DNA of 14,294 nucleotides from a virus (IMGVR_UViG_3300028952_000022:1-14294); one strand, 5' to 3'. Positions 2,229 through 14,294 are shown, numbered from the stretch's first letter. The notes: generated by a model not told the origin, from the letters alone. Program-made: numbers and translations.

Positions 2229-2579
2229 ATGACTCAAAACTATGAACTGATTGTGAAAGGGATCCGCAATTTTGAGAATAAAGTTACGGTAACTTTAGCG
2301 TTACGGGACAAAAAAACGCTTTGACGGTGAAATTTTTGACCTGGACATCTCGCTGGACCGTGTTGAAGGTGCCACGCTGGAGTTTTATGAGGCAGCAGCC
2401 AGAAGGAGCATCAGACAGGTCTTCCTGGATGTTGCTGCCGGGTTATGTGAAGGGGATGAGCAGTCGCCGGAAAAGCGCCCCGTAATTTTAGAGGCGCAGA
2501 ATGTATGGATAACCTACAAAGGAAAGCTACCGGGAATAATTACTGGTTCTCTGAAGACTCCTCCGGAATCACAACCTTA
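2229..2579 (+). pseudogene. YdfR/DUF1327-like prophage protein, frameshifted at an A7 homopolymer (2310-2316)
   Basis: ATG 2229 gives 'MTQNYELIVKGIRNFENKVTVTLALRDKKTL*' (stop 2322-2324). Removing one A gives a continuous ~116-aa protein '...ALRDKKRFDGEIFDLDISLDRVEGATLEFYEAAARRSIRQVFLDV...ESQP*' ending at 2579. This resembles the YdfR-type protein found between holin and lysozyme in E. coli cryptic prophages (from memory). Confidence 0.55.
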
Positions 2580-2643
2580 AGTCACTGACCGGAACAGATA
2601 AACCTGTCCGTGGGCAGAAACCGATAAATCCTGATAAATATCC

Positions 2644-3177
2644 ATGAACACCAAAATCAAATACGGCCTGTCGGCTGCCGTTCTGGCGCTGATTGCCGCT
2701 GGTGCGCCTGCGCCTGACATTCTCGACCAGTTTCTGGATGAAAAGGAAGGTAACCACACCACGGCATACCGTGATGGCGCGGGTATCTGGACCATCTGCC
2801 GCGGTGCCATCCTGGTGGATGGCAAACCTGTCGTTCCTGGCATGAAGTTGTCGAAGGAAAAATGCGACCGGGTTAACGCCATTGAGCGTGATAAGGCGCT
2901 GGCATGGGTGGAGAAAAACATCAGAGTGCCATTGAGTGAACCCCAGAAAGCGGGGATCGCGTCATTCTGTCCGTACAACATTGGCCCCGGTAAGTGTTTT
3001 CCGTCGACGTTTTATAAACGAATTAATGCAGGTGATCGCAGGGGAGCGTGTGAGGCGATTCGCTGGTGGATTAAGGACGGTGGCAGGGACTGCCGTATTC
3101 GCTCAAATAACTGTTACGGTCAGGTATCCCGTCGTGACCAGGAGAGCGCGCTGGCGTGCTGGGGAATCGACAGATAA
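2644..3177 (+). CDS. R: SAR-type endolysin (phage lysozyme, 177 aa)
   Basis: N-terminal signal-anchor-release-like hydrophobic stretch 'YGLSAAVLALIAAGAPAP', then a lysozyme-like domain ('TAYRDGAGIWTICRG...'). Position is downstream of the holin and upstream of Rz/Rz1. Confidence 0.85.
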   Translation: MNTKIKYGLSAAVLALIAAGAPAPDILDQFLDEKEGNHTTAYRDGAGIWTICRGAILVDGKPVVPGMKLSKEKCDRVNAIERDKALAWVEKNIRVPLSEPQKAGIASFCPYNIGPGKCFPSTFYKRINAGDRRGACEAIRWWIKDGGRDCRIRSNNCYGQVSRRDQESALACWGIDR

Positions 3178-3266
3178 GCAGAATATTTTGCTAATAAATG
3201 ACGTTGGCCAAGGCGGATGGATAACACGAAATCCTGCGAACTGGCAAAATGTAAGTGAATAAAAGT

Positions 3267-3306
3267 AAAAACCCCGTTTGTTGGCAGCAAGCGGGGTTTT
3301 GTTTTT
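3267..3306 (+). terminator. Rho-independent terminator ~90 nt downstream of R
   Basis: aaaaaCCCCGTTTG-ttggcag-CAAGCGGGGtttt gttttt: 9-bp stem with one wobble, 7-nt loop, T-run 3297-3306. Confidence 0.6.
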
Positions 3307-3469
3307 ATGGCAGTAAGCTATGGGAGGCTGCCTTGATTGATTTTAGCAAACTGATTAGGGAGTTGCGACTCATGATTAGTCAATTACCAAACTGGAAATT
3401 TTTGCTGGTCTGGAGCATCCCTTTTTTATGGGTAGTATCCCAGTTAATTGTGGCAATTAAGGGGTAGCT

Positions 3470-3601
3470 ATGTCAGACAAACTCATAACGCCGGCAAAGG
3501 TCCTGTGTGTGATTGTCGGTATTTCATTTTCACTAATGCTGGTTGCTCTTTTTCTGTCCCTCGCCTGGGTGATGTTGTCTTCGTCGGGGCTGCTGGGGTG
3601 A
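3470..3601 (+). CDS. Hypothetical small membrane peptide (43 aa, single predicted TMD)
   Basis: ATG 3470 preceded by AAGGGG (3459-3464); translation 'MSDKLITPAKVLCVIVGISFSLMLVALFLSLAWVMLSSSGLLG*'. Below the ORF-track size cutoff, found by hand translation. Confidence 0.35.
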   Translation: MSDKLITPAKVLCVIVGISFSLMLVALFLSLAWVMLSSSGLLG

Positions 3602-3720
3602 CAGTGACTGATGACATCAGCAGAGCGCTGGCTTTTGCTATTAAGTGGGTGGCTGTTGGTATTGCTGTGTCTCCGATGCTGTATGGGCTGGCAAAACTGG
3701 TCATTGCGCTGAAATCGTGA
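3598..3720 (+). CDS. Hypothetical small hydrophobic peptide (~40 aa, possible GTG start), paralogous to the 3732-3818 ORF
   Basis: Frame of track ORF 3448-3720; C-terminal part 'DDISRALAFAIKWVAVGIAVSPMLYGLAKLVIALKS*'. Start codon uncertain (GTG 3598, GTG 3604 or later). Confidence 0.2.
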   Translation: MTVTDDISRALAFAIKWVAVGIAVSPMLYGLAKLVIALKS

Positions 3721-3731
3721 ACTTTAAAAAG

Positions 3732-3818
3732 ATGAGTGCTGAACTTATTCGGGCAATGGCATTTGCCATTCGTATTGTGGCCATTGCTGTTCTGGTCTGG
3801 GCAATCCGTTGGTGGTGA
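3732..3818 (+). CDS. Hypothetical small hydrophobic peptide (28 aa) immediately upstream of Rz
   Basis: ATG 3732 to TGA 3816-3818: '[28 protein letters not shown]'. Motif RA(L/M)AFAI(K/R)xVA is shared with the preceding ORF. Weak ribosome-binding site. Confidence 0.25.
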
Positions 3819-3819
3819 T

Positions 3820-4314
3820 ATGAACCGTGTTCTGTGTGTGGTGATTATTGTCCTGCTGGTAGCCTGTGGTGTGCTTAGTCTGGGGCTGAATCATTACCGC
3901 GATAACGCCATCACCTACAAAGCGCAGCGCGATAAAAAAGTCAGTGAGCTGAAACTGGCGAATGCCACTATTACTGACATGCAGCAGCGCCAGCGAGATG
4001 TCGCTGCGCTTGATGCCAGATACACGAAGGAATTAGCCGATGCGAGAGCTGAAAATGAAACTCTGCGCGCTGATGTTGCCGCTGGTCGTAAGCGCCTGCG
4101 GGTCAACGCCACCTGCCCCGGTACCGTGCGTGAAGCCACCGGCACCTCCAGCGTGGATAATGCAACCGGCCCCCGACTGGCAGACACCGCTGAACGGGAT
4201 TATTTCATCCTCAGAGAACGGTTGATGACAATGCAGAAGCAGCTGGAAGGGGCGCAGGAATATATCCGCACTCAGTGCACTAAGCTGGCTTTTTATTATC
4301 CGGAGGATACATGA
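3820..4314 (+). CDS. Rz: Inner-membrane spanin Rz (i-spanin)
   Basis: ATG 3820 with GGTGGTG upstream; '[75 protein letters not shown]...' is close to lambda Rz. N-terminal TMD plus coiled-coil periplasmic domain. Confidence 0.9.
4040..4225 (+). CDS. Rz1: Outer-membrane lipoprotein spanin Rz1 (o-spanin), embedded in the +1 frame of Rz
   Basis: '[61 protein letters not shown]': lipobox LVVSAC, proline-rich, very close to lambda Rz1. Confidence 0.85.
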
Positions 4315-4535
4315 AGAAATTACGGGTAACCGTAGAACCTTTTCAGGGAACAATTCCGTTCCGTATTTTGCAGCGTGGTCGTGTTCTTGTTGAAGGTTCG
4401 TTCAGTGGTAAATGTACGCAATTACACTCCCGGACCTTTCAGGTGAATGCCACGAATGAAGAGCTAACCGTGGAGTGTACGATGAATGCCGCTAAATGCC
4501 GCATGGTATCCGCTGCATTACAGCCAGTGTGTTGA
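4311..4535 (+). CDS. Hypothetical protein (74 aa); start overlaps the Rz stop (ATGA)
   Basis: ORF '[29 protein letters not shown]...'; translational-coupling-type overlap with Rz. No recognisable family. Confidence 0.3.
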
Positions 4536-4733
4536 GCGACCTTATTATCCATGCGCGGTATTGTCGCCGTATTCCTGCATTAACAGAGACCGCAGCCCGA
4601 CAGGGAGACTCCTCTGCGCGAGTGTGCGGGGATAATCAAAAACGATACACACCGGGGTTTACCGCGTTAACGGAGCGCGGCGTTGTCCCCTCATAGTCGC
4701 CTGTCCGGTGCGATGGTGGAAGAAACCGAACGT

Positions 4734-4934
4734 TCATTTCTCGTTATTTGTCATGCTGGCCGGGCGCAGATGCGTTGCATCTGTTGCCAGCCTTCTCCTG
4801 CAGGCTTCAATAACCCACGCTGAAAAGTTACCGGACCCTTTATGCTCAAGGGCGATGTTGATCTGTTCAATTATGTGATTGGGGAAACGGATATTGCGGG
4901 TTGTGGTTCTGCGGGTACGGTTTTTCGATGACAT
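4734..4934 (-). CDS. ylcI: YlcI/DUF3950-family small prophage protein (66 aa)
   Basis: Internal Met start (ATG at 4934 on the minus strand) with AAGGAA 6 nt upstream; 'MSSKNRTRRTTTRNIRFPNHIIEQINIALEHKGSGNFSAWVIEACRRRL...' matches the YlcI-type protein found next to terminase genes in E. coli cryptic prophages such as DLP12 (from memory). Confidence 0.65.
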   Translation of the reverse strand: MSSKNRTRRTTTRNIRFPNHIIEQINIALEHKGSGNFSAWVIEACRRRLATDATHLRPASMTNNEK

Positions 4935-4975
4935 ATTTATTTCCTTTACTGATTGCCATATGACGGGGATTTTAC

Positions 4976-5341
4976 ATGGCTGAGCTTCGTACACTCCAGA
5001 GCAGAATCAAAACACTGAATACCCGACGGGTGAATATTCTGAAGGGTGAACAGCGTCGTGTCAGTGGCAGTGCACGTGTTTCCCTCAAGCGTCATATCTG
5101 GCTCAGGGACGCCGGGCAGTGCCGTCTCTGTGGTCGTGTGGTTGACCTCTGTGACAGTGAACTCGATCACCGAATTGCACTTCAGTTCGGTGGTGGTAAT
5201 GAGGAGACGAATCTCTGGACGCTCTGTACCGAATGCCATCGACAAAAGTCTGCTCGTGAAGCGGCGAGTGGTATGCCGGACCCGACGCTGCCGGAGGTGT
5301 CCGGAGGTAGTGGCAGAGAGGACGACATCATCGGACTGTAA
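4976..5341 (+). CDS. HNH endonuclease (packaging-associated)
   Basis: HNH motif 'DHRIALQFGG...NLWTLCTECHRQKS' with a Cys pair 'CRLCG'. Position directly upstream of TerS is typical of HK97-like cos phages. Confidence 0.85.
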   Translation: MAELRTLQSRIKTLNTRRVNILKGEQRRVSGSARVSLKRHIWLRDAGQCRLCGRVVDLCDSELDHRIALQFGGGNEETNLWTLCTECHRQKSAREAASGMPDPTLPEVSGGSGREDDIIGL

Positions 5342-5430
5342 CCCAACCCGGGGGGGGTATCATCCGGCGTAAAAAACGATCGCTTTGGACACCGCGCCCC
5401 CTCTCACGCAGAGAAAAAATTCCCGTTTCA

Positions 5431-5559
5431 GGGCAGTTAACATGTTAACTGGCTGCCCGGGCATTTTTGCGGTTTTTATCTTTATTATTCAGTTTGTTGT
5501 GCGGAAAAAATGTTAACAGGCTTTTTCAGCAAATGTTAACCAGGCAGCAGTTAACATTT
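5431..5559. promoter_or_regulatory. cos-region-like array of ATGTTAAC / GTTAACAT inverted repeats (candidate terminase or accessory-factor binding sites)
   Basis: Palindrome GGGCAG-TTAACATGTTAA-CTGGCTGCCC at 5431-5458; AATGTTAAC at 5508-5516; perfect 10-bp inverted repeat AAATGTTAAC-n9-GTTAACATTT at 5531-5559. Located between the HNH and TerS genes. Confidence 0.4.
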
Positions 5560-5631
5560 GCGGCATGAGACGCCGGGAAAAATGGGCTGAACCATACCCG
5601 GCTGAGTGCGTTCTGGACCCGGGAGGAGGCT

Positions 5632-6195
5632 GTGCTGACAACGCAAAAACGAAAATTTGCGCTGGCGCTCATGTCCGGGAAAAACAAAACAGCGTCAGCC
5701 ATTGCCGCCGGTTATTCGGCGAAGACCGCCAGGGTTAAAGGCTCGCAGCTGGCAAAAGATCCTGAGGTGCTTGCGTTTATAGCCCGTAAACAATGCGAGA
5801 CGGTGGAGGTGGATGAGGTTCCTGTTTACCGGCAGAAAAAATCAGAGCAGGAGGATAAACCCCGTCGCCGTGAGGCGGCTGCAATACCACAGCCGGACGA
5901 AAACAATCTGGAGATGCCACCGTCCGCGGTGATGTCTCCTGGTATTGAATATATGGAGGATGGTCTTCCCGATCCGGTGAAAGCCATGGGGCGGATCCTG
6001 GTGGAAAACCTCTGCATTGATCCGAAACTGGCACTGGATGCGGCCTGGCGTCTGGCGCAGTTCACGCACCATAAAAAAGGGGATACCGGGAAAAAATCGG
6101 CAAAAGGTGATGCCGCGAAAAAAGCGGCTAACCGTTTTGCGGTGCCACCGCCCCCCCGACTGGTGGTGAATAACGATAATGAGGGCAACGGATGA
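5632..6195 (+). CDS. Terminase small subunit (P27-family type), GTG start
   Basis: GTG 5632 preceded by GGGAGGAGG; N-terminal 'QKRKFALALMSGKNKTASAIAAGYSAKTARVKGSQLAKDPEV' is an HTH-like TerS signature; stop overlaps the TerL start (ATGA at 6192-6195). Confidence 0.8.
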   Translation: MLTTQKRKFALALMSGKNKTASAIAAGYSAKTARVKGSQLAKDPEVLAFIARKQCETVEVDEVPVYRQKKSEQEDKPRRREAAAIPQPDENNLEMPPSAVMSPGIEYMEDGLPDPVKAMGRILVENLCIDPKLALDAAWRLAQFTHHKKGDTGKKSAKGDAAKKAANRFAVPPPPRLVVNNDNEGNG

Positions 6196-7916: not shown

Positions 7917-8486
7917 GTGACTCTTAAACGGGCCTGTTCCCTGCTGACGGTGAAATCCTTCAGTGAGGATGAACGGGTGATCACCGGGATTGCGTCAACG
8001 CCTTCTCCGGATCGGGATGGTGACATCCTGGAGCCGGAGGGCGCGGAGTTTGGCAGTGCGATCCCGTTTCTCTGGCAGCATGACCATTCCCGCCCGGTGG
8101 GGCAGTGTACGGTGCGCCGGGTCAGCGAAGGGCTGGAAATCACGGCAACACTGGTGAAGCCCGTACCGGATATGCCGTCGCAACTGGCTGCCCGGCTGGA
8201 TGAGGTCTGGGCGGCCATTAAGACCGGGCTGGTCAGGGGGCTGTCCGTGGGCTTCCGTCCCCATGAATACACCTTTCTGGACGGAGGCGGACTGCATTTT
8301 CTGCGCTGGGAACTGATGGAGGTGTCTGCCGTCACCGTGCCCGCGAATGCGGAATGCACCATCCGGACCATTAAATCTTACGACCGCCCGTTTTCTGCCG
8401 CGTCCGGCAACCGGAAACCGGTGGTGAAAATCGCATCTTCTGACCGGAACGCCAACAACACCAACTGCGCGACAGGGAACGAATAA
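7917..8486 (+). CDS. HK97-family prohead protease (peptidase S78/U35), GTG start
   Basis: CAGGAGG RBS 6 nt upstream of GTG 7917; motifs 'FLWQHD' and 'GLSVGF' typical of HK97 gp4-like proteases. The C-terminal ~30 aa ('[30 protein letters not shown]') may be junction-derived. Confidence 0.75.
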   Translation: MTLKRACSLLTVKSFSEDERVITGIASTPSPDRDGDILEPEGAEFGSAIPFLWQHDHSRPVGQCTVRRVSEGLEITATLVKPVPDMPSQLAARLDEVWAAIKTGLVRGLSVGFRPHEYTFLDGGGLHFLRWELMEVSAVTVPANAECTIRTIKSYDRPFSAASGNRKPVVKIASSDRNANNTNCATGNE

Positions 8487-9747
8487 TACCCAAATCGCAA
8501 GCACGGCTTATGTTATGGCTGCGATCGCTGCCCTCGTGGACTCGTCGCCTGACGCACTGAATACGCTGAACGAGCTGGCTGCGGCGTTGGGCAACGACCC
8601 GAATTTTGCGACCACCATGACTAGCGCGCTTGCGGGTAAGCAACCGAAAGATGCCACCCTGACGGCGCTGGCCGGGCTTGCTACTGCGGCAGACAGGTTT
8701 CCGTATTTTACGGGGAATGATGTTGCCAGTCTGGCAACCCTGACAAAAGTTGGGCGGGATATTCTTGCGAAATCGACCGTTGCCGCCGTTATCGAATACC
8801 TCGGTTTACGAGAACTCGGCACAAGCGGGGAGAAAATACCGTTACTCAGTACAGCGAATACCTGGACTAATCGACAAACATTCAGCGGTGGCCTTTCTGG
8901 TGAACTATCCGGCAATGCTTCTACAGCTGCAAAATTAAAAACTGCCAGGAAAATAAGCAATGTGGCTTTTGATGGTTCCTCCGATATCACATTAAAAGCA
9001 AGTCATGTTGGTGCGTTTGCCTTAGGGAAAACAGGAAGCACCGTTGCGAATGATAAAGCAGTTGGATGGAACTGGAGTAGCGGAGCCTATAACGCAACTA
9101 TTAGTGGTGCATCAACGTTAATTATTCATTTTTATATGGGAGAAGGAAGTTGTCCTGCAGCTCAGTTTCGGATTAATTATAAAAATGGCGGTATTTTTTA
9201 TCGTTCAGCCCGTGATGGTTATGGTTTTGAAGCCGACTGGTCCGAATTTTACACCACCACCAGAAAGCCTTCAGCAGGAGATGTTGGTGCACTGCCGTTA
9301 TCTGGTGGTCAACTGAATGGTGCACTGGGTATCGGAACATCCAGTGCTCTTGGCGGTAATTCGATTGTATTGGGTGATAATGACACGGGCTTTAAACAAA
9401 ATGGCGATGGTAATCTGGATGTTTATGCTAATAACGTCCATGTTATGCGCTTTGTCTCCGGAAGCATTCAAAGTAATAAAACCATAAATATTACAGGGCG
9501 TGTTAACCCCTCGGATTACGGTAACTTTGATTCCCGTTATGTGAAAGATGTTCGACTTGGTTCACAGCAATATTATGGAGTGAACAACTGGCAAACATGG
9601 AATTTCCAGTGCCCTTCAGGTCATGTATTGTCTGGTATTAATGTTCAGGATACAGGGTCTAACTCTGCCGATAATATAGCGGGCGTTTATTACAGACCCG
9701 TTCAAAAGTATATAAATGGCACCTGGTATAATGTAGCGAGCGTTTAA
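8428..9747 (+). CDS. stf: Side tail-fibre protein, 5'-truncated (constant part Sc fused to variable part Sv); first ATG at 8515
   Basis: Frame is open from 8428; '[25 protein letters not shown]' is the conserved mid-fibre motif of lambda Stf / Mu S / P2 H type fibres, which normally lies several hundred residues into the protein. The C-terminal end '[19 protein letters not shown]' is a typical fibre tip. No N-terminal fibre domain is present. Confidence 0.8.
8789..8814 (+). repeat. Left crossover site of the invertible segment (gix/pix-like)
   Basis: TTATCGAATACCTCGGTTTACGAGAA lies inside the tail-fibre ORF; it matches the reverse complement of the right site (11870-11895) at 21 of 26 positions. 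Confidence 0.7.
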
Positions 9748-9748
9748 T

Positions 9749-10282
9749 ATGATGCACTTAAAGAACATAAAAGCGGGTAATGCTAAAACACTGGAACAGT
9801 ATGAGTTAACAAAGAAACACGGAGTTATCTGGCTTTACTCTGAGGACGGAAAAAACTGGTATGAGGAAGTGAAAAACTTTCAGCCAGACACCATAAAGAT
9901 TGTTTACGATGAAAATAATATTATTGTTGCCATAACCAAAGATGCCTCCACACTTAACCCTGAAGGTTATAGCGTCGTTGAGATTCCTGATATTACCGCC
10001 AACCGGCGTGCTGACGACTCAGGTAAATGGATGTTTAAAGATGGCGCAGTCATTAAACGTGTATATACCGAAGAAGAGTTGCGCCTACAGACGGAAAACC
10101 AGAAAAAAATATTATTACAGCAGGCCAGAGAAAAAACGCAGTTCTGGCAAACACAGCTTACTTTGGGGATTATCACTGATTCAGACAGACAGCAACTGAT
10201 GAACTGGATGCGATACGTGCAACAGGTTGAGACAACTGATACCTCGGTTCTTCCTGTAACATTCCCGGAACCACCAGAATAA
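9749..10282 (+). CDS. tfa: Tail fibre assembly protein (Tfa) for the currently expressed fibre tip
   Basis: '[41 protein letters not shown]...ITANRRAD...' is Tfa/gpU-like; it starts 2 nt after the fibre stop. Confidence 0.85.
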
Positions 10283-10283
10283 G

Positions 10284-10310
10284 AAAAGGCCCGTACGGGC
10301 CTTAATTTGT
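10284..10310. terminator. Bidirectional terminator between the convergent tfa genes
   Basis: Perfect palindrome AAGGCCCGTACGGGCCTT (10286-10303), with T-rich sequence on both strands after the hairpin. Confidence 0.6.
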
Positions 10311-10312
10311 TG

Positions 10313-10840
10313 TTATTCTGGTTTCTGTGGCCATTCAGGCTTTGCAGTATCCACACGGCTGACCATAACGCTGTAGCGTTCCCATGATTCCAGTCGTGTG
10401 CGTTCCTCATCAGTTGCCATATTCAGTCTGACAGCACGTTCCAGCGGTTGAATCACAGACTCCGCTTCGGAAAGCAAAGCGGCTTTTTGTAACTCTGCCT
10501 GCTGTTGCAGTTCCTGTTTTGTATATTCCCGCTTTACTACTTTACCATCCAGAAACTTCCAGTTTCCCGAGATATCGGCGCGACGGTTGGCTGTTATATT
10601 CGGTAACTCAACAACACTTAACCCGTCAGGGTTAAGTGTTGATACGTCTTTCTCAATACAACGAATAATCCCCTTCTGGTCATAAGCTATTTTTAAAGTA
10701 TCATCCTGAAAGTTTTTTAATTCGTCATACCAGTTTTTACCGTCTTCTGTATATAGCCAGATAACGCCAGCTTTTTTCGTAAGCTGATACTGCTCAATGG
10801 TTTTGGGGTTTCCGGCGGTAATATTTTTCAGATGTTGCAT
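10313..10840 (-). CDS. tfa: Tail fibre assembly protein, alternative copy (Tfa') in the inverted arm
   Basis: '[41 protein letters not shown]...[13 protein letters not shown]...' is paralogous to the plus-strand Tfa; AGGAGA RBS upstream on the minus strand. Confidence 0.85.
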
Positions 10841-10855
10841 ATATTCTCCTGATGG

Positions 10856-11887
10856 CTATGCCTGTTCAACGTTATACCAGTTACCAGAAATGTATTTTTG
10901 TAGTGGTCGTGACACCATCCAGTCATCTCCATCAACCTCACCAATAATTTGCAATCCTGTTGTCACATGACCATTACCTGGTTCGCAAAGTCCTCCGCGA
11001 TATAATGTGTCAGAACGTCTGCCTCCCAGACGCACATTTCTGATAAAAGAACTATTCAGGTAATCATTTAAGTTTGACCCCCAGCACCCACCAAATATAT
11101 TTCCATCGGTGTTATAACGGACGCCACCCGCAATAAGAGCACCCGGTGAAATAAAGGATTTATCGTTCGGGTTAAACTGCCATAAAGCATCATTACCGCC
11201 ATCGCCACGCATATGAATACATGGAACCGGAAATCCATACTGTTCTGTCAGTAAATACCCAAAGCTGACCGCGCCGGGATAGCCCTGTCCATTGCGAATG
11301 GACAAGCCCTTAACTATCGGCACGTAATGACCACCAGGAGTGGGATTCCAGGCAAACTGCGTCTGAACAAAAGGCGCGGTGGCATTATTCAACTGGTCTG
11401 CAAATGCGCCACTTCCATCAGGAATTATTCCCTGATGAATATATGCAACCCGCTTATAAAAATCAGCAGATGCGGGTTGAAGCCCAAATGCCAGTTGTCC
11501 ATTTGAATAGAATAAAAGGACACCGTCGCCGCCCTGTTTAATACCAGTGTCGTTATCTCCGAGAGTAATGGAATTACCGCCCAGTGCGTTATCTGTACCA
11601 AGCGCCAGCCCACCATCAATTTTGGCCCCGTGGCTGACAGATATAGCACCTGTTCTCAGATTTATAGCGAATGGCCTTAATGGGCCGATATCACCGTTTT
11701 CGCCTTGTCCTTCAGCCGTCGGAATGAAATGAAGAAAATCTTCTGAACGACGGAAAATAAGACCGAAGGCATCATTGAAAATTCGCAGCGCATTCACCGT
11801 GCCAATTTTCAGTTCTCCGGTCATTTTATCGCCGGAACGCTGAACGGCGTTACCAGCCTTGTTTACCGTTTCCTGTAAACCGAGGTT
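10856..11887 (-). CDS. Alternative tail-fibre C-terminal variable segment (Sv'), silent in this orientation (no upstream Sc on this strand)
   Basis: Minus-strand frame is open from 11887 (just inside the right crossover site) to the stop at 10856; fibre-tip sequence '...GNSITLGDNDTGIKQGGDG...QKYISGNWYNVEQA' parallels the plus-strand Sv ('[19 protein letters not shown]...[14 protein letters not shown]'). Confidence 0.75.
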   Translation of the reverse strand, partial: NLGLQETVNKAGNAVQRSGDKMTGELKIGTVNALRIFNDAFGLIFRRSEDFLHFIPTAEGQGENGDIGPLRPFAINLRTGAISVSHGAKIDGGLALGTDNALGGNSITLGDNDTGIKQGGDGVLLFYSNGQLAFGLQPASADFYKRVAYIHQGIIPDGSGAFADQLNNATAPFVQTQFAWNPTPGGHYVPIVKGLSIRNGQGYPGAVSFGYLLTEQYGFPVPCIHMRGDGGNDALWQFNPNDKSFISPGALIAGGVRYNTDGNIFGGCWGSNLNDYLNSSFIRNVRLGGRRSDTLYRGGLCEPGNGHVTTGLQIIGEVDGDDWMVSRPLQKYISGNWYNVEQA

Positions 11888-11895
11888 TTAGATAA
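11870..11895 (+). repeat. Right crossover site of the invertible segment (gix-like)
   Basis: Plus strand TTCCTGTAAACCGAGGTTTTAGATAA; its reverse complement TTATCTAAAACCTCGGTTTACAGGAA is, from memory, within 1 nt of the phage Mu gix site. Confidence 0.75.
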
Positions 11896-11949
11896 TGGCG
11901 GTTTCTGGCCTGCATGGCATGATTTGTGCTTTTGGACGGGAGATTCAGC

Positions 11950-12190
11950 GTGCTGATTGGCTATGTAAGGGTATCAACAAATGACCAGAATACAGATCTG
12001 CAACGAAACGCTCTTGTTTGTGCAGGATATGAACAAATATTTGAAGATAAATTAAGCGGAACAAGGACAGGCCGACCTGGATTAAAACGTGCTTTAAAGC
12101 GCCTTCAAAAAGGTGACGCACTGGTTGTCTGAAAACTGGACTGACTGGTTCACTGTATGCGGCATCTTGTCGTGCTGGTGGTGGAAGCCT
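11950..12190 (+). pseudogene. pin: Pin/Gin/Hin-family serine DNA invertase, truncated (N-terminal ~61 aa intact, then in-frame stops and decay)
   Basis: GTG 11950: 'MLIGYVRVSTNDQNTDLQRNALVCAGYEQIFEDKLSGTRTGRPGLKRALKRLQKGDALVV*'. This matches the Pin/Gin N-terminus including the catalytic Ser in 'VSTNDQ', but TGA stops replace the expected W/R codons ('VV*KLD*L...'); the resolvase core and the C-terminal HTH are absent. Confidence 0.8.
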
Positions 12191-12192
12191 AG

Positions 12193-12325
12193 AAAAAGTA
12201 TCGGGTGTTACTGAACCGTGTTGATACATCAACTGCACCTGATATTGAGTGGCCTACGAACCCTGTCAGGGAGTAATCATTGGGATTATGCCGCAGCACG
12301 TCTTAAGCAAGAACGTGCTGCGGTT
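12193..12325 (+). repeat. Direct repeat copy 1: tfa 3'-end fragment ('...[25 protein letters not shown]') plus an 11-bp-stem hairpin (12291-12323)
   Basis: ~130 bp, near-identical to 13245-13378; hairpin CCGCAGCACGT-n11-ACGTGCTGCGG. Confidence 0.7.
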
Positions 12326-12330
12326 GGATG

Positions 12331-12999
12331 CTATTTTTTCCCTGAAGCGGAAAACATTACTACAGTACCTTGAACCTTGGTTTTAACATTCTCGAAATGC
12401 TCTGAGAGTATATGTGTTAAGCCTTCTTCGGAATCTTTTGTGTTTGAAAAGATGCCTTTCTGATTGTAAATGCGCATCAGTTTTTGACCGAAGCTATTGT
12501 GCACAACTCCATCGCCAAGAATTGTGGCTCCGTATAGAGTTCCATCGTCAGTTAAGGCCTGCGCCGCATTGCGTATTACACAGCTTTTTGTAGATATATT
12601 TCCAGGCAGGCAGTGAAGAAGGTAAAACATGGAAATGGAATCAAATTGACCATGTAACGCCGCGGGATAAGGTTCAAAAACATCATGGCTAATTTTATGT
12701 TTAATTTTTGATTCCCCAGCCCTTGTAGATGCCGCGTTCAGGCTAGCTTCGTTCAAATCCATTAAAGATATCAGACTACTCTCAGGTACGTGAGTAAGGT
12801 AAAACCCAGTTCCAACACCAATATCCAGATGGTTGTTACCTACATGTTCCAGAAAGTGTGGAAGAAGGTGTTCCTTTGTAGGACATCCCCATGCAAGCCG
12901 ATTTGATACTCCCAAAACCCACCAGTCATAAAGCTTTAGGGTAAGTGGTGTGTAAATTTTAGCCCCATCATCTGTGTTTTTTTTCATTGATTTCACCAT
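12331..12999 (-). CDS. Class I SAM-dependent methyltransferase (Rossmann fold), substrate unknown; probable true start at ATG 12987 (GGTGA RBS)
   Basis: Motif I 'LDIGVGTGFY' (GxGxG), acidic post-beta2 'LMDLN'; no DPPY/NPPF-type DNA-MTase motif IV seen. Visibly AT-rich relative to neighbouring phage genes. Confidence 0.65.
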   Translation of the reverse strand: MVKSMKKNTDDGAKIYTPLTLKLYDWWVLGVSNRLAWGCPTKEHLLPHFLEHVGNNHLDIGVGTGFYLTHVPESSLISLMDLNEASLNAASTRAGESKIKHKISHDVFEPYPAALHGQFDSISMFYLLHCLPGNISTKSCVIRNAAQALTDDGTLYGATILGDGVVHNSFGQKLMRIYNQKGIFSNTKDSEEGLTHILSEHFENVKTKVQGTVVMFSASGKK

Positions 13000-13055
13000 G
13001 TTATAGTTTTATTTGTGAATTAAATCAATTATGGCGATGAATTACAAGGGGTTAA

Positions 13056-13325
13056 ATGCTGCCGCAGCATAGCGATATTGAAATAGCCTGGTATGCTTCG
13101 ATACAGCAGGAGCCGAATGGCTGGAAGACCGTCACCACACAGTTCTACATCCAGGAATTCAGTGAGTATATTGCGCCACTGCAGGATGCTGTAGATCTGG
13201 AAATCGCAACGGAGGAAGAAAGATCGTTGCTGGAGGCATGGAATAAATATCGGGTATTGTTGAATCGTGTTGATACATCAACTGCACCTGATATTGAGTG
13301 GCCTGCAAATCCTGTCAGGGAGTAA
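13056..13325 (+). CDS. Truncated/chimeric tail fibre assembly protein fragment (89 aa)
   Basis: C-terminal ~50 aa '[53 protein letters not shown]' matches the conserved Tfa C-terminus; the N-terminal 35 aa are unrelated to the Tfa N-domain. AAGGGG RBS before the ATG. Confidence 0.45.
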
Positions 13326-13378
13326 TCATTGGGATTATGCCGCAGACACGTCGTATGCAGGAACGTGCTGCGGTTAGT
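13245..13378 (+). repeat. Direct repeat copy 2 (tfa 3' end plus imperfect hairpin)
   Basis: Near-identical to 12193-12325; includes an identical 39-bp core 'cgtgttgatacatcaactgcacctgatattgagtggcct'. Confidence 0.7.
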
Positions 13379-13439
13379 TTGTGAGCTTTCGATAGTGGTT
13401 GTTATTTTTGCCCTTATTTGTTCCGGAGGCCATGGTTCA

Positions 13440-13610
13440 ATGGTCCGTCTGCCCCCTGTGGTGATGTCAGCAAAATCAGCCACTGCGCGAACCACAATAG
13501 CCCGGGAAGATGCTGAAGATCACCAGGTAAAGCTGTCAGCGCAGAAACTGGAAGAACTGCTCGCATCAATGGTTAAGGATGAGGTTGATCGCAATGATGG
13601 GATTTATTGA
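13440..13610 (+). CDS. Hypothetical small protein (56 aa)
   Basis: ATG 13440 with GGAGG 10 nt upstream: 'MVRLPPVVMSAKSATARTTIAREDAEDHQVKLSAQKLEELLASMVKDEVDRNDGIY*'. The annotated track start at 13329 lies inside the repeat hairpin and is unlikely. Confidence 0.3.
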   Translation: MVRLPPVVMSAKSATARTTIAREDAEDHQVKLSAQKLEELLASMVKDEVDRNDGIY

Positions 13611-13706
13611 CGTCAGCGAGAGCAGAAGGAAGAACTGAATAACCTGAATGATTTACGCTCAATCAGAGCGATGGCGATTAGCGGCAATCACGCTCGATAA
13701 AATTAA

Positions 13707-13729
13707 CCCCGGTGATCATCCGGGGTTTT
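13707..13729. terminator. Terminator hairpin, probably bidirectional, between the convergent small ORF and the Rha gene
   Basis: CCCCGG-tgatcat-CCGGGG followed by TTTT on the plus strand; on the minus strand the Rha gene stop (13737-13739) lies 8 nt upstream. Confidence 0.55.
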
Positions 13730-13736
13730 GCATTCA

Positions 13737-14294
13737 TTAAAATCGCATCAACCTTTCCACCAATTGTTCTTTACGGGCAACGATCCACCCATGTTGCTCC
13801 AGATAAAATTTAAACCGTTCCAGCGTGCATACCATCGCATCGGCGGGGACTTTTTCTGTGAACTCGACCTGACCGTGTTTATCGAAGTGGATCAGTAATG
13901 CGCATCCATTATTTGGGGCGGGGGAGTTTTGTGCTGCAGGAGGACGTTTGTGGAGTTCTTCTTCCATTGCGTTAAATTTTTCAATGTAAGCTTCTTTTAG
14001 TCTGGCTGCTTTTTTGCCAGTAAATCCCATTACGAGGAACATGAAGCCGTCTTTTGTGATCAGGTAGCATCGTGATTCACGTTCTGCGCCGTTGCCAATT
14101 TCGACAGTCTGAACATCGGCCGAAAAGTTGGCTGATGTAAATTCGGGAGAGCAGTCGAGTGTGTCAATCTTAGCTAAAACGTGTTTATGTTGTTTATCGA
14201 AGTAGTCGGCAACAGCTTGAGAGGTGGTAACCAGGCGACCATCTTTGAAAAAGACTTTTGGTGACTCGTTAGAAAAAGTTATAGCTGTATTCAT
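13737..14294 (-). CDS. Phage regulatory protein, Rha family (185 aa); start codon at the window edge
   Basis: 'VTTSQAVADYFDKQHKHVLAKIDTL...TKDGFMFLVMGFTGKKAARLKEAYIEKFNAMEEEL' is the Rha N-terminal domain signature; ATG is the reverse complement of 14292-14294. Confidence 0.7.
   Translation of the reverse strand: MNTAITFSNESPKVFFKDGRLVTTSQAVADYFDKQHKHVLAKIDTLDCSPEFTSANFSADVQTVEIGNGAERESRCYLITKDGFMFLVMGFTGKKAARLKEAYIEKFNAMEEELHKRPPAAQNSPAPNNGCALLIHFDKHGQVEFTEKVPADAMVCTLERFKFYLEQHGWIVARKEQLVERLMRF

What the first reader, a model, noticed from the sequence alone, without database searches (positions are those of the whole stretch)
12193..13378. Low-GC SAM-dependent methyltransferase moron bracketed by ~130-bp direct repeats derived from a tfa 3' end
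A minus-strand Rossmann-fold methyltransferase (12331-12999) that is AT-rich compared with the flanking phage genes sits between two near-identical copies of the last ~80 nt of a tail-fibre-assembly gene plus its downstream hairpin (12193-12325 and 13245-13378). The first copy is fused to the decayed pin gene; the second forms the 3' end of a short chimeric Tfa-like ORF. This looks like a cargo gene inserted or captured by recombination between tfa 3' ends, a known hotspot for morons. The protein lacks the (D/N/S)PP(Y/F) motif of N6/N4 DNA methyltransferases, so the target could be a small molecule, RNA or protein. A role in defence or anti-defence is speculative.
Basis: partly seen in the sequence, partly recalled or inferred. 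Interest (0 to 1): 0.55.

Follow-up and report, generated by a model that had tools for sequence, protein, structure and literature searches.

The report
Prophage methyltransferase cargo gene ybcY
This is an intact copy of ybcY, a long-annotated but uncharacterised methyltransferase cargo gene of E. coli lambda-like prophages, sitting between two leftover tail-fibre-assembly gene ends that let phages gain or lose it by recombination; it is real but ordinary.

Summary
Two direct repeats (12179-12330 and 13228-13380, 87-89% identical, one 1-nt indel) bracket a minus-strand class I SAM methyltransferase (MTase). Each repeat is the last 98 nt of a tfa gene plus a hairpin.

It is not new. The gene is the intact homologue of K-12 DLP12 ybcY, which in K-12 is also flanked by tfa fragments (tfaD', tfaX'). 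It occurs at >=95% DNA identity in 3836 of 5426 complete E. coli genomes, at several attachment sites, and in active lambdoid phages (ev243, 2G7b).

In the less decayed version of this same prophage (ATCC 11775), the left repeat is simply the end of a full-length tfa. Sister prophages at the same site (strains 190693, NMBU-W13E19) lack the gene. They carry one chimeric tfa end whose crossover lies inside the repeat. The cassette is therefore gained or lost by homologous recombination at tfa 3' ends.

The enzyme has a confident model (pLDDT 91.7). It resembles small-molecule and lipid methyltransferases, not DNA methyltransferases, and is under purifying selection (dN/dS 0.12-0.17). Relatives are stand-alone, low-GC genes in unrelated chromosomal, plasmid and IS contexts. 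The substrate is unknown, and nothing supports a defence role.

The parts
11926..12178 (+). Decayed pin (serine invertase) remnant, fused in frame to the tfa fragment that follows
   Evidence: Pfam Resolvase 4.6e-15 covers only positions 2-69 of 145. The translation reads ...LVV*KLD*LVHCMRHLVVLVVEA*KKYR..., with two in-frame stops, running straight into tfa sequence. The same junction is present in TW11681 and ET76.
12179..12276 (+). Repeat copy 1, coding part: the last 98 nt of a tfa gene (pseudogene fragment, TAG at 12190-12192, stop at 12274-12276)
   Evidence: In ATCC 11775 the homologous sequence is the 3' end of an intact 194-aa tfa.
12290..12325 (.). Repeat copy 1, hairpin downstream of tfa (about 12-bp G+C-rich stem), 5 nt from the MTase stop codon
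   Evidence: Folds at -30.7 kcal/mol (+ strand, z -3.5) and -25.4 kcal/mol (- strand, z -3.8). It stays attached to the MTase in O157 DEC4E, where the tfa coding part is absent and homology starts at 12285. No U-tract follows it on the MTase strand.
12331..12987 (-). YbcY-family class I SAM-dependent methyltransferase, 218 aa from the second ATG (the annotated 222-aa form starts at 12999)
   Evidence: Pfam. PHROG 2132 at 4e-157, with the profile starting at residue 5. 98.9% DNA identity to K-12 ybcY. AF2 pLDDT 91.7. NC101 has only the second ATG and the homologues are 218 aa. dN/dS 0.12-0.17.
13000..13055 (-). MTase promoter region: TTGATT-17-TATAAC (13028-13000) and an overlapping TTAACC-16-CATAAT (13055-13028)
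   Evidence: Pattern found once, 0 expected; consensus scan. The same hexamers are listed as a constitutive RpoD-holoenzyme site with H-NS in the K-12 ybcY/tfaX spacer (PMC3946193). DNA homology to the Enterobacter chromosomal homologue extends to 13049.
13056..13325 (+). tfaX-like 89-aa ORF. The first ~26 residues are unrelated to the full-length Tfa of ATCC 11775. Residues 27-89 are a tfa C-terminal fragment. Tfa DNA homology starts at 13149. Repeat copy 2 occupies 13228-13325.
   Evidence: Caudo_TAP positions 75-130 only. PHROG 2341. 81% identical to residues 132-194 of the ATCC 11775 Tfa. The ORF is broken or re-terminated in K-12, 2G7b, ev243 and O157.
13339..13375 (.). Repeat copy 2 hairpin, followed by a T-rich tail on the + strand (terminator-like for the late/tfa transcript)
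   Evidence: A homologous hairpin follows lambda's own tfa (orf-194): 84% identity over window 13149-13382.
13422..13700 (+). DUF4376 / side-tail-fibre gene fragment (pseudogene) that follows the tfa end in both MTase-bearing and MTase-less alleles
   Evidence: PGAP annotation in JJ1886, ATCC 11775, 190693 and NMBU. About 75% identity to stf2 of phage SerU-LTIIb. PHROG 1141 tail fibre.

Best explanation
The region is the accessory ('b-region') end of a defective lambda-like prophage integrated at ompW, next to the trp operon.

The methyltransferase is the intact form of ybcY. It is a self-contained cargo unit of about 800 bp (12285-13085): its own sigma-70 promoter, the ORF and a hairpin. It sits convergent to the late operon, immediately after tfa, which is the position lambda gives to ea47.

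Inferred history. A low-GC, stand-alone enterobacterial methyltransferase gene was captured together with its promoter. One old illegitimate join then placed it in front of the 3' part of a second tfa gene, creating tfaX. From then on the cargo was flanked by two copies of the conserved tfa 3' end plus hairpin.

Because that about 150-230 bp sequence is shared by many lambdoid phages, homologous recombination within it moves the cassette into new prophages or deletes it.

In this window the left tfa has additionally been replaced by an invertible tail-fibre module. Its broken pin gene is fused to the tfa end, so only 148 bp of the left repeat remain.

The enzyme is a soluble Rossmann-fold methyltransferase of the small-molecule/lipid type and is not a DNA methyltransferase. 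It is probably expressed, or H-NS-silenced, from the prophage independently of phage development. It acts alone on a common cellular or environmental compound that is still unknown.

Shown here: the anatomy, identity with ybcY, distribution, presence/absence alleles, fold class and purifying selection. Inferred: the order of events, expression and substrate class.
For: - Identity with ybcY and its tfaD'/tfaX' flanks.
- Found in 3836/5426 genomes at >=95% identity, and in phages ev243, 2G7b, PhiR*, Kati and Turner.
- Full tfa - MTase - tfaX' - DUF4376' - ompW' in ATCC 11775.
- MTase-less sister prophages match a synthetic deletion product in one piece at 98.6-99.7%.
- Their single tfa end is chimeric, with the switch inside the 40-nt identical tract.
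- Homology breakpoints cluster at 12179-12182 or 12285-12291 on the left, and at 13085, 13280, 13302, 13375, 13397 or 13688 on the right.
- The MTase-tfaX junction occurs in 3437 genomes.
- Lambda's tfa end plus hairpin is 84% identical.
- Promoter.
- Fold.
- Stand-alone homologues in unrelated contexts, low GC everywhere.
- Homology with the Enterobacter gene includes about 50 nt upstream of the ATG.
- dN/dS 0.12-0.17.
Against: - The direction of each event (insertion vs deletion) cannot be read from the chimeric alleles. Both give the same pattern.
- The hairpin has no U-tract on the MTase strand, so a dedicated terminator is not demonstrated.
- GC is only marginally below the immediate neighbours.
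- No expression data exist for an intact copy. The K-12 copy is a frameshifted pseudogene, and its deletion had no distinct effect in the one assay found, growth inhibition by Hha overexpression (PMC2408971).
Confidence: 0.8

Rival explanations
1. A recent, lineage-specific insertion: the methyltransferase entered this particular (ST131-type) prophage between two pre-existing tfa ends.
For: The gene is flanked by direct repeats and is absent from some sister prophages.
Against: The same MTase-tfaX junction occurs in 3437 of 5426 genomes, at the argU, ompW and potB sites, and in free phages. The MTase coding sequence differs by 0-7 nt between these contexts. The cassette was inherited or exchanged whole, not assembled here.
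Confidence: 0.05
2. The 89-aa tfaX ORF is a functional mini tail-fibre chaperone, and the repeat is kept because it encodes protein rather than being a recombination relic.
For: It matches a full-length 88-aa phage family, PHROG 2341, at 4e-61. The ORF is open in the window, ATCC 11775 and TW11681. It is present in active phages.
Against: It has an internal stop in K-12 and a frameshift in 2G7b. It has different C-termini in ev243 and O157, where homology ends at 13280, and is absent in NC101-type loci. PGAP calls it a pseudogene. It lacks the N-terminal 74 positions of the Tfa domain.
Confidence: 0.08
3. The enzyme is a nucleic-acid methyltransferase (anti-restriction, or self/non-self marking, i.e. 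defence or anti-defence).
For: Phages often carry orphan DNA methyltransferases. The gene has a Rossmann fold and SAM motif I.
Confidence: 0.07
4. The repeats are sites of a dedicated mobile element (an integron-like or recombinase-driven cassette) rather than passive homology.
For: The cargo differs at the same position in other prophages: a GGDEF diguanylate cyclase in ET76 lies between the tfa end and a hairpin copy. The hairpin travels with the MTase in O157.
Against: No recombinase is associated, and the adjacent pin is broken and belongs to the tail-fibre switch. Cassette boundaries vary over hundreds of bases. Crossovers fall in the longest identical tract, as expected for RecA/Red-type homologous recombination. 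The shared 10-mer TGCCGCAGCA is not above chance.
Confidence: 0.05

Closest known systems
E. coli K-12 DLP12 prophage locus tfaD' - ybcY' - tfaX' (b0562 region)
   Same: The same gene at 98.9% DNA identity over 12326-13055. The same convergent orientation after a tfa 3' end, the same tfaX fragment upstream, and the same promoter hexamers.
   Different: The K-12 copy is frameshifted (longest ORF 143 aa) and its tfaX has an internal stop. The window copy is intact. The prophage and attachment site differ (argU in K-12, ompW/trp here). Here the left tfa is reduced to 98 coding nt fused to pin'.
Lambdoid 'morons' / lambda b-region accessory genes (e.g. lambda ea47 after tfa; bor, lom) - concept recalled from the phage literature (Juhala/Hendrix), not re-read here
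   Same: An independent transcription unit on the opposite strand at the end of the late operon. Atypical composition, and present or absent among otherwise similar phages. Lambda's own tfa end plus hairpin is homologous to the repeat.
   Different: It is bracketed by a duplicated tfa end, which gives a ready-made route for gain and loss. No clear intrinsic terminator is seen on its own strand.
Small-molecule class I SAM methyltransferases: juvenile-hormone acid MT (7ec0), UbiG (4kdr), PE N-methyltransferase PmtA (8ys9), SgvM (8ftr), phosphoethanolamine MTs (3uj7), NodS (3ofj)
   Different: Only 11-21% identity, and no single subfamily stands out. The family-specific invariant residues (YDWWVL...N..AW.C near the N-terminus, YLLHCLPG, YN.KGIFSN) are not matched to any characterised enzyme.
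Phage orphan DNA methyltransferases (Dam/Dcm-like)
   Same: Phage-borne and SAM-dependent.
   Different: No target-recognition domain, no DPPY/NPPY motif, and fold neighbours are not DNA MTases.

Membership tests
Class I (Rossmann-fold) SAM-dependent methyltransferase | Matches to methyltransferase-domain profiles above the curated cut-off | tested here: met
   Methyltransf_12 37.5 bits (cut-off 30), _23 29.0 (27), _25 27.7 (27), _11 24.6 (21.2).
Class I (Rossmann-fold) SAM-dependent methyltransferase | Glycine-rich SAM-binding motif I and an acidic residue at the end of strand 2 | tested here: met
   D55-G57-G59-G61 and D77 are invariant in 41 homologues. The sequence reads LDIGVGTG ... LMDLN.
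Class I (Rossmann-fold) SAM-dependent methyltransferase | Seven-stranded alpha/beta fold | tested here: met
YbcY family (PHROG 2132; RefSeq WP_000240999.1) | Full-length high-identity match to the family and to K-12 ybcY | tested here: met
   PHROG 2132 at 4.2e-157 over 218/218 profile positions. 98.9% DNA identity to the K-12 locus. The annotated product in JJ1886 is WP_000240999.1.
N6-adenine / N4-cytosine DNA methyltransferases | Catalytic (D/N/S)PP(Y/F) motif | tested here: not met
   No such motif and no PP dipeptide in the 222-aa sequence.
N6-adenine / N4-cytosine DNA methyltransferases | Closest structural relatives are DNA methyltransferases / presence of a target-recognition domain | tested here: not met
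Moron (independent accessory transcription unit in a phage genome) | Own promoter | tested here: inconclusive
   Two consensus-like sigma-70 promoters lie at 13000-13055(-). The same hexamers are reported as an RNAP-holoenzyme binding site in K-12 by genomic SELEX (PMC3946193). No transcript mapping was available.
Moron (independent accessory transcription unit in a phage genome) | Own terminator | tested here: inconclusive
   A stable hairpin lies 5 nt after the stop codon but has no U-tract on the MTase strand. The terminator scan did not call it on the - strand.
Moron (independent accessory transcription unit in a phage genome) | Present or absent between otherwise homologous phage genomes | tested here: met
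   ATCC 11775 has the gene; 190693, NMBU-W13E19, EFF60 and JP538 lack it, all matched over the same tfa and DUF4376' flanks. For 190693 and NMBU-W13E19 the same prophage family and attachment site were confirmed by annotation; EFF60 and JP538 were not fetched. Lambda has ea47 at the equivalent position (lambda map from memory).
Moron (independent accessory transcription unit in a phage genome) | Nucleotide composition unlike the surrounding phage genes | tested here: inconclusive
   GC 41.1% against 53-60% for head and lysis genes, but 41.6-47.4% for the adjacent tfa, pin', tfaX and rha genes.
Tail fibre assembly protein (Caudo_TAP, lambda Tfa) | Full-length domain | tested here: not met
   The tfaX ORF covers only profile positions 75-130 of 131. 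Copy 1 is a 32-codon fragment with a stop. Both are relics.
Anti-phage defence systems (PADLOC models) | Significant match to a defence-system component | tested here: not met
   Only mad2 at E 0.009, 12.9 bits.

The most novel reading that the evidence does not exclude
The YbcY-family enzyme may be a genuine lysogenic-conversion factor. In this reading, a promoter-carrying, stand-alone methyltransferase is kept intact in about 70% of E. coli genomes because it methylates a common lipid, metabolite or toxin. Examples would be the PE head group, as in its top Foldseek neighbour PmtA, or a carboxylic acid, as in JHAMT. That modification would change envelope properties or detoxify a compound in the gut. 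The tfa-end repeats would then act as a built-in shuttle spreading the trait between lambdoid phages.
Probability: 0.2. Interest if true: 0.55.

Novelty: already known. Interest (0 to 1): 0.2.

Why it matters
The locus has little novelty. The gene, its tfa-fragment flanks and its prophage setting have been annotated in E. coli K-12 for decades and recur in thousands of genomes.

What remains open is the biochemical function of a methyltransferase that is intact and under purifying selection. It is carried by most E. coli, including pandemic ST131, yet is a pseudogene in the laboratory strain where it would normally have been studied.

The comparison also gives a clean, checkable example of how conserved tfa 3' ends act as recombination linkers that swap cargo (MTase, a GGDEF cyclase, the sit operon, stress-gene paralogues) at the end of the lambdoid late operon.

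Tried and rejected
- Foldseek against afdb50 was unavailable.
- BFVD viral structures gave only generic MTase hits.
- NCBIfam gave only sub-threshold hits: CpaM, RquA and PmtA at 16-18 bits against cut-offs of 175-390.
- Domain fusions among distant relatives (P450, RCC1) were uninformative.
- Neighbourhoods of homologues in Enterobacter, Salmonella, Yersinia, Aeromonas, Citrobacter and E. coli share no partner gene, so guilt-by-association gives nothing.
- Literature searches for ybcY, b0562, tfaX and WP_000240999 found no functional study. They found only a promoter listing, context mentions, and no distinct effect of the ybcY mutant in one Hha-overexpression growth assay.
- The 10-mer TGCCGCAGCA, shared by the hairpin stem and the start of tfaX, was tested as a possible site motif and is not above chance: 15 of 200 shuffles reach the same count.
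- Within-E. coli dN/dS was uninformative because there are only 0-7 differences. Cross-genus comparisons were used instead.
- An assembly artefact was rejected, because the arrangement is identical in hundreds of closed genomes.

Full report
**1. The observation**

The window contains a direct repeat at 12179-12296 / 13228-13345 (89% identical). It continues after a 1-nt indel as 12297-12325 / 13347-13375 (90%). BLAST scores the pair as 148 nt at 88.5%, E about 1e-46 to 1e-48. A global alignment gives 133/153 identities.

Each copy holds the last 98 nt of a tail-fibre-assembly (tfa) reading frame...(W/*)(K/N)[20 protein letters not shown](T/A)NPVRE*. This is followed by a G+C-rich hairpin that folds far better than shuffled sequence (z -3.5 and -2.8 on the + strand).

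Between the copies lies the minus-strand ORF 12331-12999. It passes the Pfam gathering scores of four methyltransferase-domain families.

- The repeats start about 15 nt further left than stated.
- 'Near-identical' is really 87-89%.
- The AT-richness is only marginal against the immediate neighbours. The MTase is 41.1% GC, against 41.6-47.4% for tfa, pin', tfaX and rha. It is marked against the head and lysis genes (53-60%).

**2. Where the window comes from**

Positions 8440-14294 are 99.97% identical to E. coli ST131 strain JJ1886. There the region is the right end of a defective lambdoid prophage inserted in ompW next to the trp operon.

The annotated order in JJ1886 is:
- stf - tfa;
- an inverted tfa' - stf';
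- a partial recombinase;
- a partial tfa;
- a class I SAM-dependent methyltransferase (WP_000240999.1, minus strand);
- a partial tfa;
- a DUF4376 pseudogene;
- rha and ash;
- ompW'.

**3. It is ybcY**

The 730-nt methyltransferase segment is found at >=95% identity in 3836 of 5426 complete E. coli genomes. These include K-12, where it lies in the DLP12 prophage between a partial tfa and a second partial tfa (tfaD' - ybcY' - tfaX') and is frameshifted (the gene names are the standard K-12 names, from memory and from PMC3946193/PMC4559166).

It also occurs in sequenced temperate phages such as ev243 and 2G7b. There it sits between the side-tail-fibre genes and a tfa fragment, an alpha/beta hydrolase, ompT and int.

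It is found at several attachment sites:
- argU (K-12, NC101);
- ompW/yciE/trp (the window, ATCC 11775, TW11681);
- beside potB (AR_0137).

In O157:H7 strain DEC4E, where the insertion site was not examined, it lies after a set of phage-borne katN/yciEFG paralogues.

The ORF is intact in every context examined except K-12.

**4. What the repeats are**

In E. coli ATCC 11775 the same prophage at the same site reads gpJ - lom - stf - tfa (full length, 194 aa) - MTase(-) - tfaX' - DUF4376' - ompW'. There the left repeat is simply the natural 3' end of the working tfa gene, and the repeat is 227 bp long (window 13149-13375 against the tfa end).

The right repeat belongs to the 89-aa ORF 13056-13325. 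Its residues 27-89 are 81% identical to residues 132-194 of that Tfa, while its first ~26 residues are unrelated. It matches only the last 56 positions of the 131-position Tfa profile. It is interrupted or re-terminated in K-12, 2G7b, ev243 and O157. It is therefore a relic and not a maintained gene.

The unique joint between the methyltransferase promoter and the start of tfaX (13000-13160) is present in 3437 genomes. This was one old event that has been inherited and exchanged since.

The repeated sequence is also 84% identical to the end of lambda's own tfa (orf-194) plus its downstream hairpin. The methyltransferase thus occupies the classic start of the leftward, non-essential 'b region' (position of ea47 from my memory of the lambda map).

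**5. Gain and loss through the repeats**

I built the sequence expected if the two repeats recombined and searched for it. Four closed genomes (190693, EFF60, NMBU-W13E19, JP538) match it in one uninterrupted piece at 98.6-99.7%. The two I fetched carry the same prophage at the same ompW/yciE/trp site with stf - tfa - DUF4376' and no methyltransferase.

At the sites that distinguish copy 1 from copy 2, their single tfa end is copy-1-like upstream and copy-2-like downstream. The switch falls in or next to the 40-nt tract that is identical in both copies. The two strains show different mosaic patterns.

It cannot tell insertion from deletion, because both give the same chimera.

Across the collection, homology breakpoints cluster as follows:
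- left side: the start of the conserved tfa end (12179-12182), or the hairpin (12285-12291);
- right side: 13085, 13280, 13302, 13375, 13397 or 13688.

The minimal unit common to all contexts is about 12285-13085: hairpin, ORF and about 85 nt of upstream sequence.

Other cargo occupies the same slot elsewhere:
- a GGDEF diguanylate cyclase between the tfa end and a hairpin copy in ET76;
- the sit operon after a single tfa end in FDAARGOS_1337.

**6. The extra twist in this window**

Here, and in TW11681 and ET76, the full-length tfa has been replaced by an invertible tail-fibre module. Its crossover sites are the inverted repeats 8783-8814 / 11870-11901.

The module's pin gene is broken. After about 68 good codons it acquires two in-frame stops and runs in frame into the tfa end (...HLVVLVVEA*KKYRVLL...).

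The pin'::tfa' joint is shared with ET76, which has no methyltransferase. It is therefore independent of the cargo.

**7. The enzyme**

The first ATG (12999) directly abuts the -10 hexamer of the promoter TTGATT-17-TATAAC (13028-13000). NC101 lacks that ATG. The homologues are 218 aa, and PHROG 2132 starts at residue 5. The true start is therefore probably the second ATG (12987), preceded by GGTGA.

The same hexamers are listed as a constitutive RpoD-holoenzyme site, with H-NS, in the K-12 ybcY/tfaX spacer (PMC3946193).

An AlphaFold model built on 41 homologues is confident (pLDDT 91.7, pTM 0.88). It shows a seven-stranded Rossmann fold with an N-terminal helical lid.
- Foldseek's best PDB matches are PE N-methyltransferase, juvenile-hormone acid MT, SgvM, phosphoethanolamine MTs and NodS (E 1e-11 to 1e-9, TM 0.55-0.68, 13-21% identity).
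- A family profile hits JHAMT (5e-6) and UbiG (7e-4).

There is no DPPY-type motif and no defence-system match. The substrate class cannot be narrowed further with these tools.

**8. Origin and selection**

Relatives at 56-90% identity occur across Enterobacterales and in Aeromonas, Shewanella and Pasteurellaceae. They are single genes with no shared neighbours:
- Enterobacter: next to the liv transporter;
- Salmonella: near hrpA/cybB;
- on a ccdAB plasmid fragment;
- between IS elements;
- in a Citrobacter prophage remnant

.

They are low-GC (36-47%) in every host. DNA similarity between the phage gene and the Enterobacter chromosomal gene (69%) continues about 50 nt upstream of the start codon. 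This fits capture of a gene together with its promoter.

Against the Salmonella, Citrobacter and Enterobacter copies, dN/dS is 0.17, 0.16 and 0.12. The protein is therefore functional and constrained.

**9. Verdict**

But it describes a long-annotated, extremely common locus (K-12 tfaD'-ybcY'-tfaX'), not something particular to this prophage.

The modest additions here are:
- explicit presence/absence alleles with crossovers inside the repeat;
- the minimal cargo unit (about 12285-13085);
- the likely corrected start codon;
- placement of the enzyme among small-molecule rather than DNA methyltransferases.

Its substrate and any benefit to the lysogen remain unknown. No functional study was found in the searchable literature.

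Noticed in passing
window 7917-8515 (junction near 8440-8447): A prohead-protease fragment (Peptidase_S78, 7917-8486) runs straight into the tail-fibre gene. Left of ~8447 the window matches one set of genomes (SASA esterase, lysis genes, HNH, terS, terL). Right of 8440 it matches JJ1886. The whole head-tail block therefore seems deleted or recombined away in this strain.
   Followed up: partly
window 8783-8814 and 11870-11901: 32-nt inverted repeats (84% complementary) with a Gin/Cin/Pin-type crossover-site look. They bracket stf-C/tfa and the inverted tfa'/stf'. This is an invertible tail-fibre switch, now frozen because pin is a pseudogene.
   Followed up: partly
window 12130-12192: The pin remnant and the tfa remnant are joined in the same reading frame at a short similar stretch (pin ...LVVLVEE / tfa ...LLEAWKKY). 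Three separate sense-to-stop changes (TGA, TGA, TAG) have accumulated. The same joint exists in TW11681 and in ET76 at the bioA-side site.
   Followed up: partly
L019 (E. coli ET76) 4329-6155: In place of the methyltransferase, a 443-aa sensor diguanylate cyclase gene (minus strand) lies between the tfa 3' fragment and a copy of the hairpin. This is different cargo in the same slot.
   Followed up: partly
L022 (O157:H7 DEC4E) 2331-4544: Phage-borne paralogues of the host stress genes next to the ompW attachment site (manganese catalase pseudogene, yciE-, yciF- and yciG-like) sit between tfa and the hairpin-MTase unit. They look like host DNA picked up by imprecise excision.
   Followed up: no
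window 12249-12386 (+): A 45-aa ORF overlaps the hairpin and the 3' end of the methyltransferase. RefSeq annotates it as a 'hypothetical protein' and, in K-12 records, as a 'nucleocapsid protein'. It looks like a spurious call with a misleading name.
   Followed up: no
window 12987-12999 (-): The annotated 222-aa start codon abuts the -10 hexamer. The second ATG (218 aa) fits the homologues, PHROG 2132 and the NC101 allele. The RefSeq start is probably four codons too early.
   Followed up: partly
window 13422-13700: The DUF4376 pseudogene after tfaX is a fragment of a side-tail-fibre gene (about 75% to stf2 of phage SerU-LTIIb). The prophage end is a stack of tail-fibre module relics: stf, tfa, tfa', stf', pin', tfa', [MTase], tfa', stf'.
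   Followed up: partly
L002 (ev243) 2831-5455; L004 (2G7b) 2838-5462; L022 8706-10991: An alpha/beta hydrolase (about 465-495 aa) and ompT travel with the MTase-tfaX unit in active phages and in O157. In Enterobacter an unrelated-length alpha/beta hydrolase lies about 0.9 kb downstream of the chromosomal homologue (L005 7584-8414). The link may be coincidental.
   Followed up: no
L011 6170-6361 (Yersinia); L024 2328-3158 (Salmonella): Rce1-like/CPBP membrane protease genes lie within about 0.5-0.8 kb of two otherwise unrelated MTase homologue loci.
   Followed up: no
window 13056-13070: The tfaX ORF starts with a near-palindrome, ATGCTGCCGCAGCAT, that shares the 10-mer TGCCGCAGCA with the hairpin stem at 12289. 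It was tested and is not more frequent than in shuffled sequence.
   Followed up: yes
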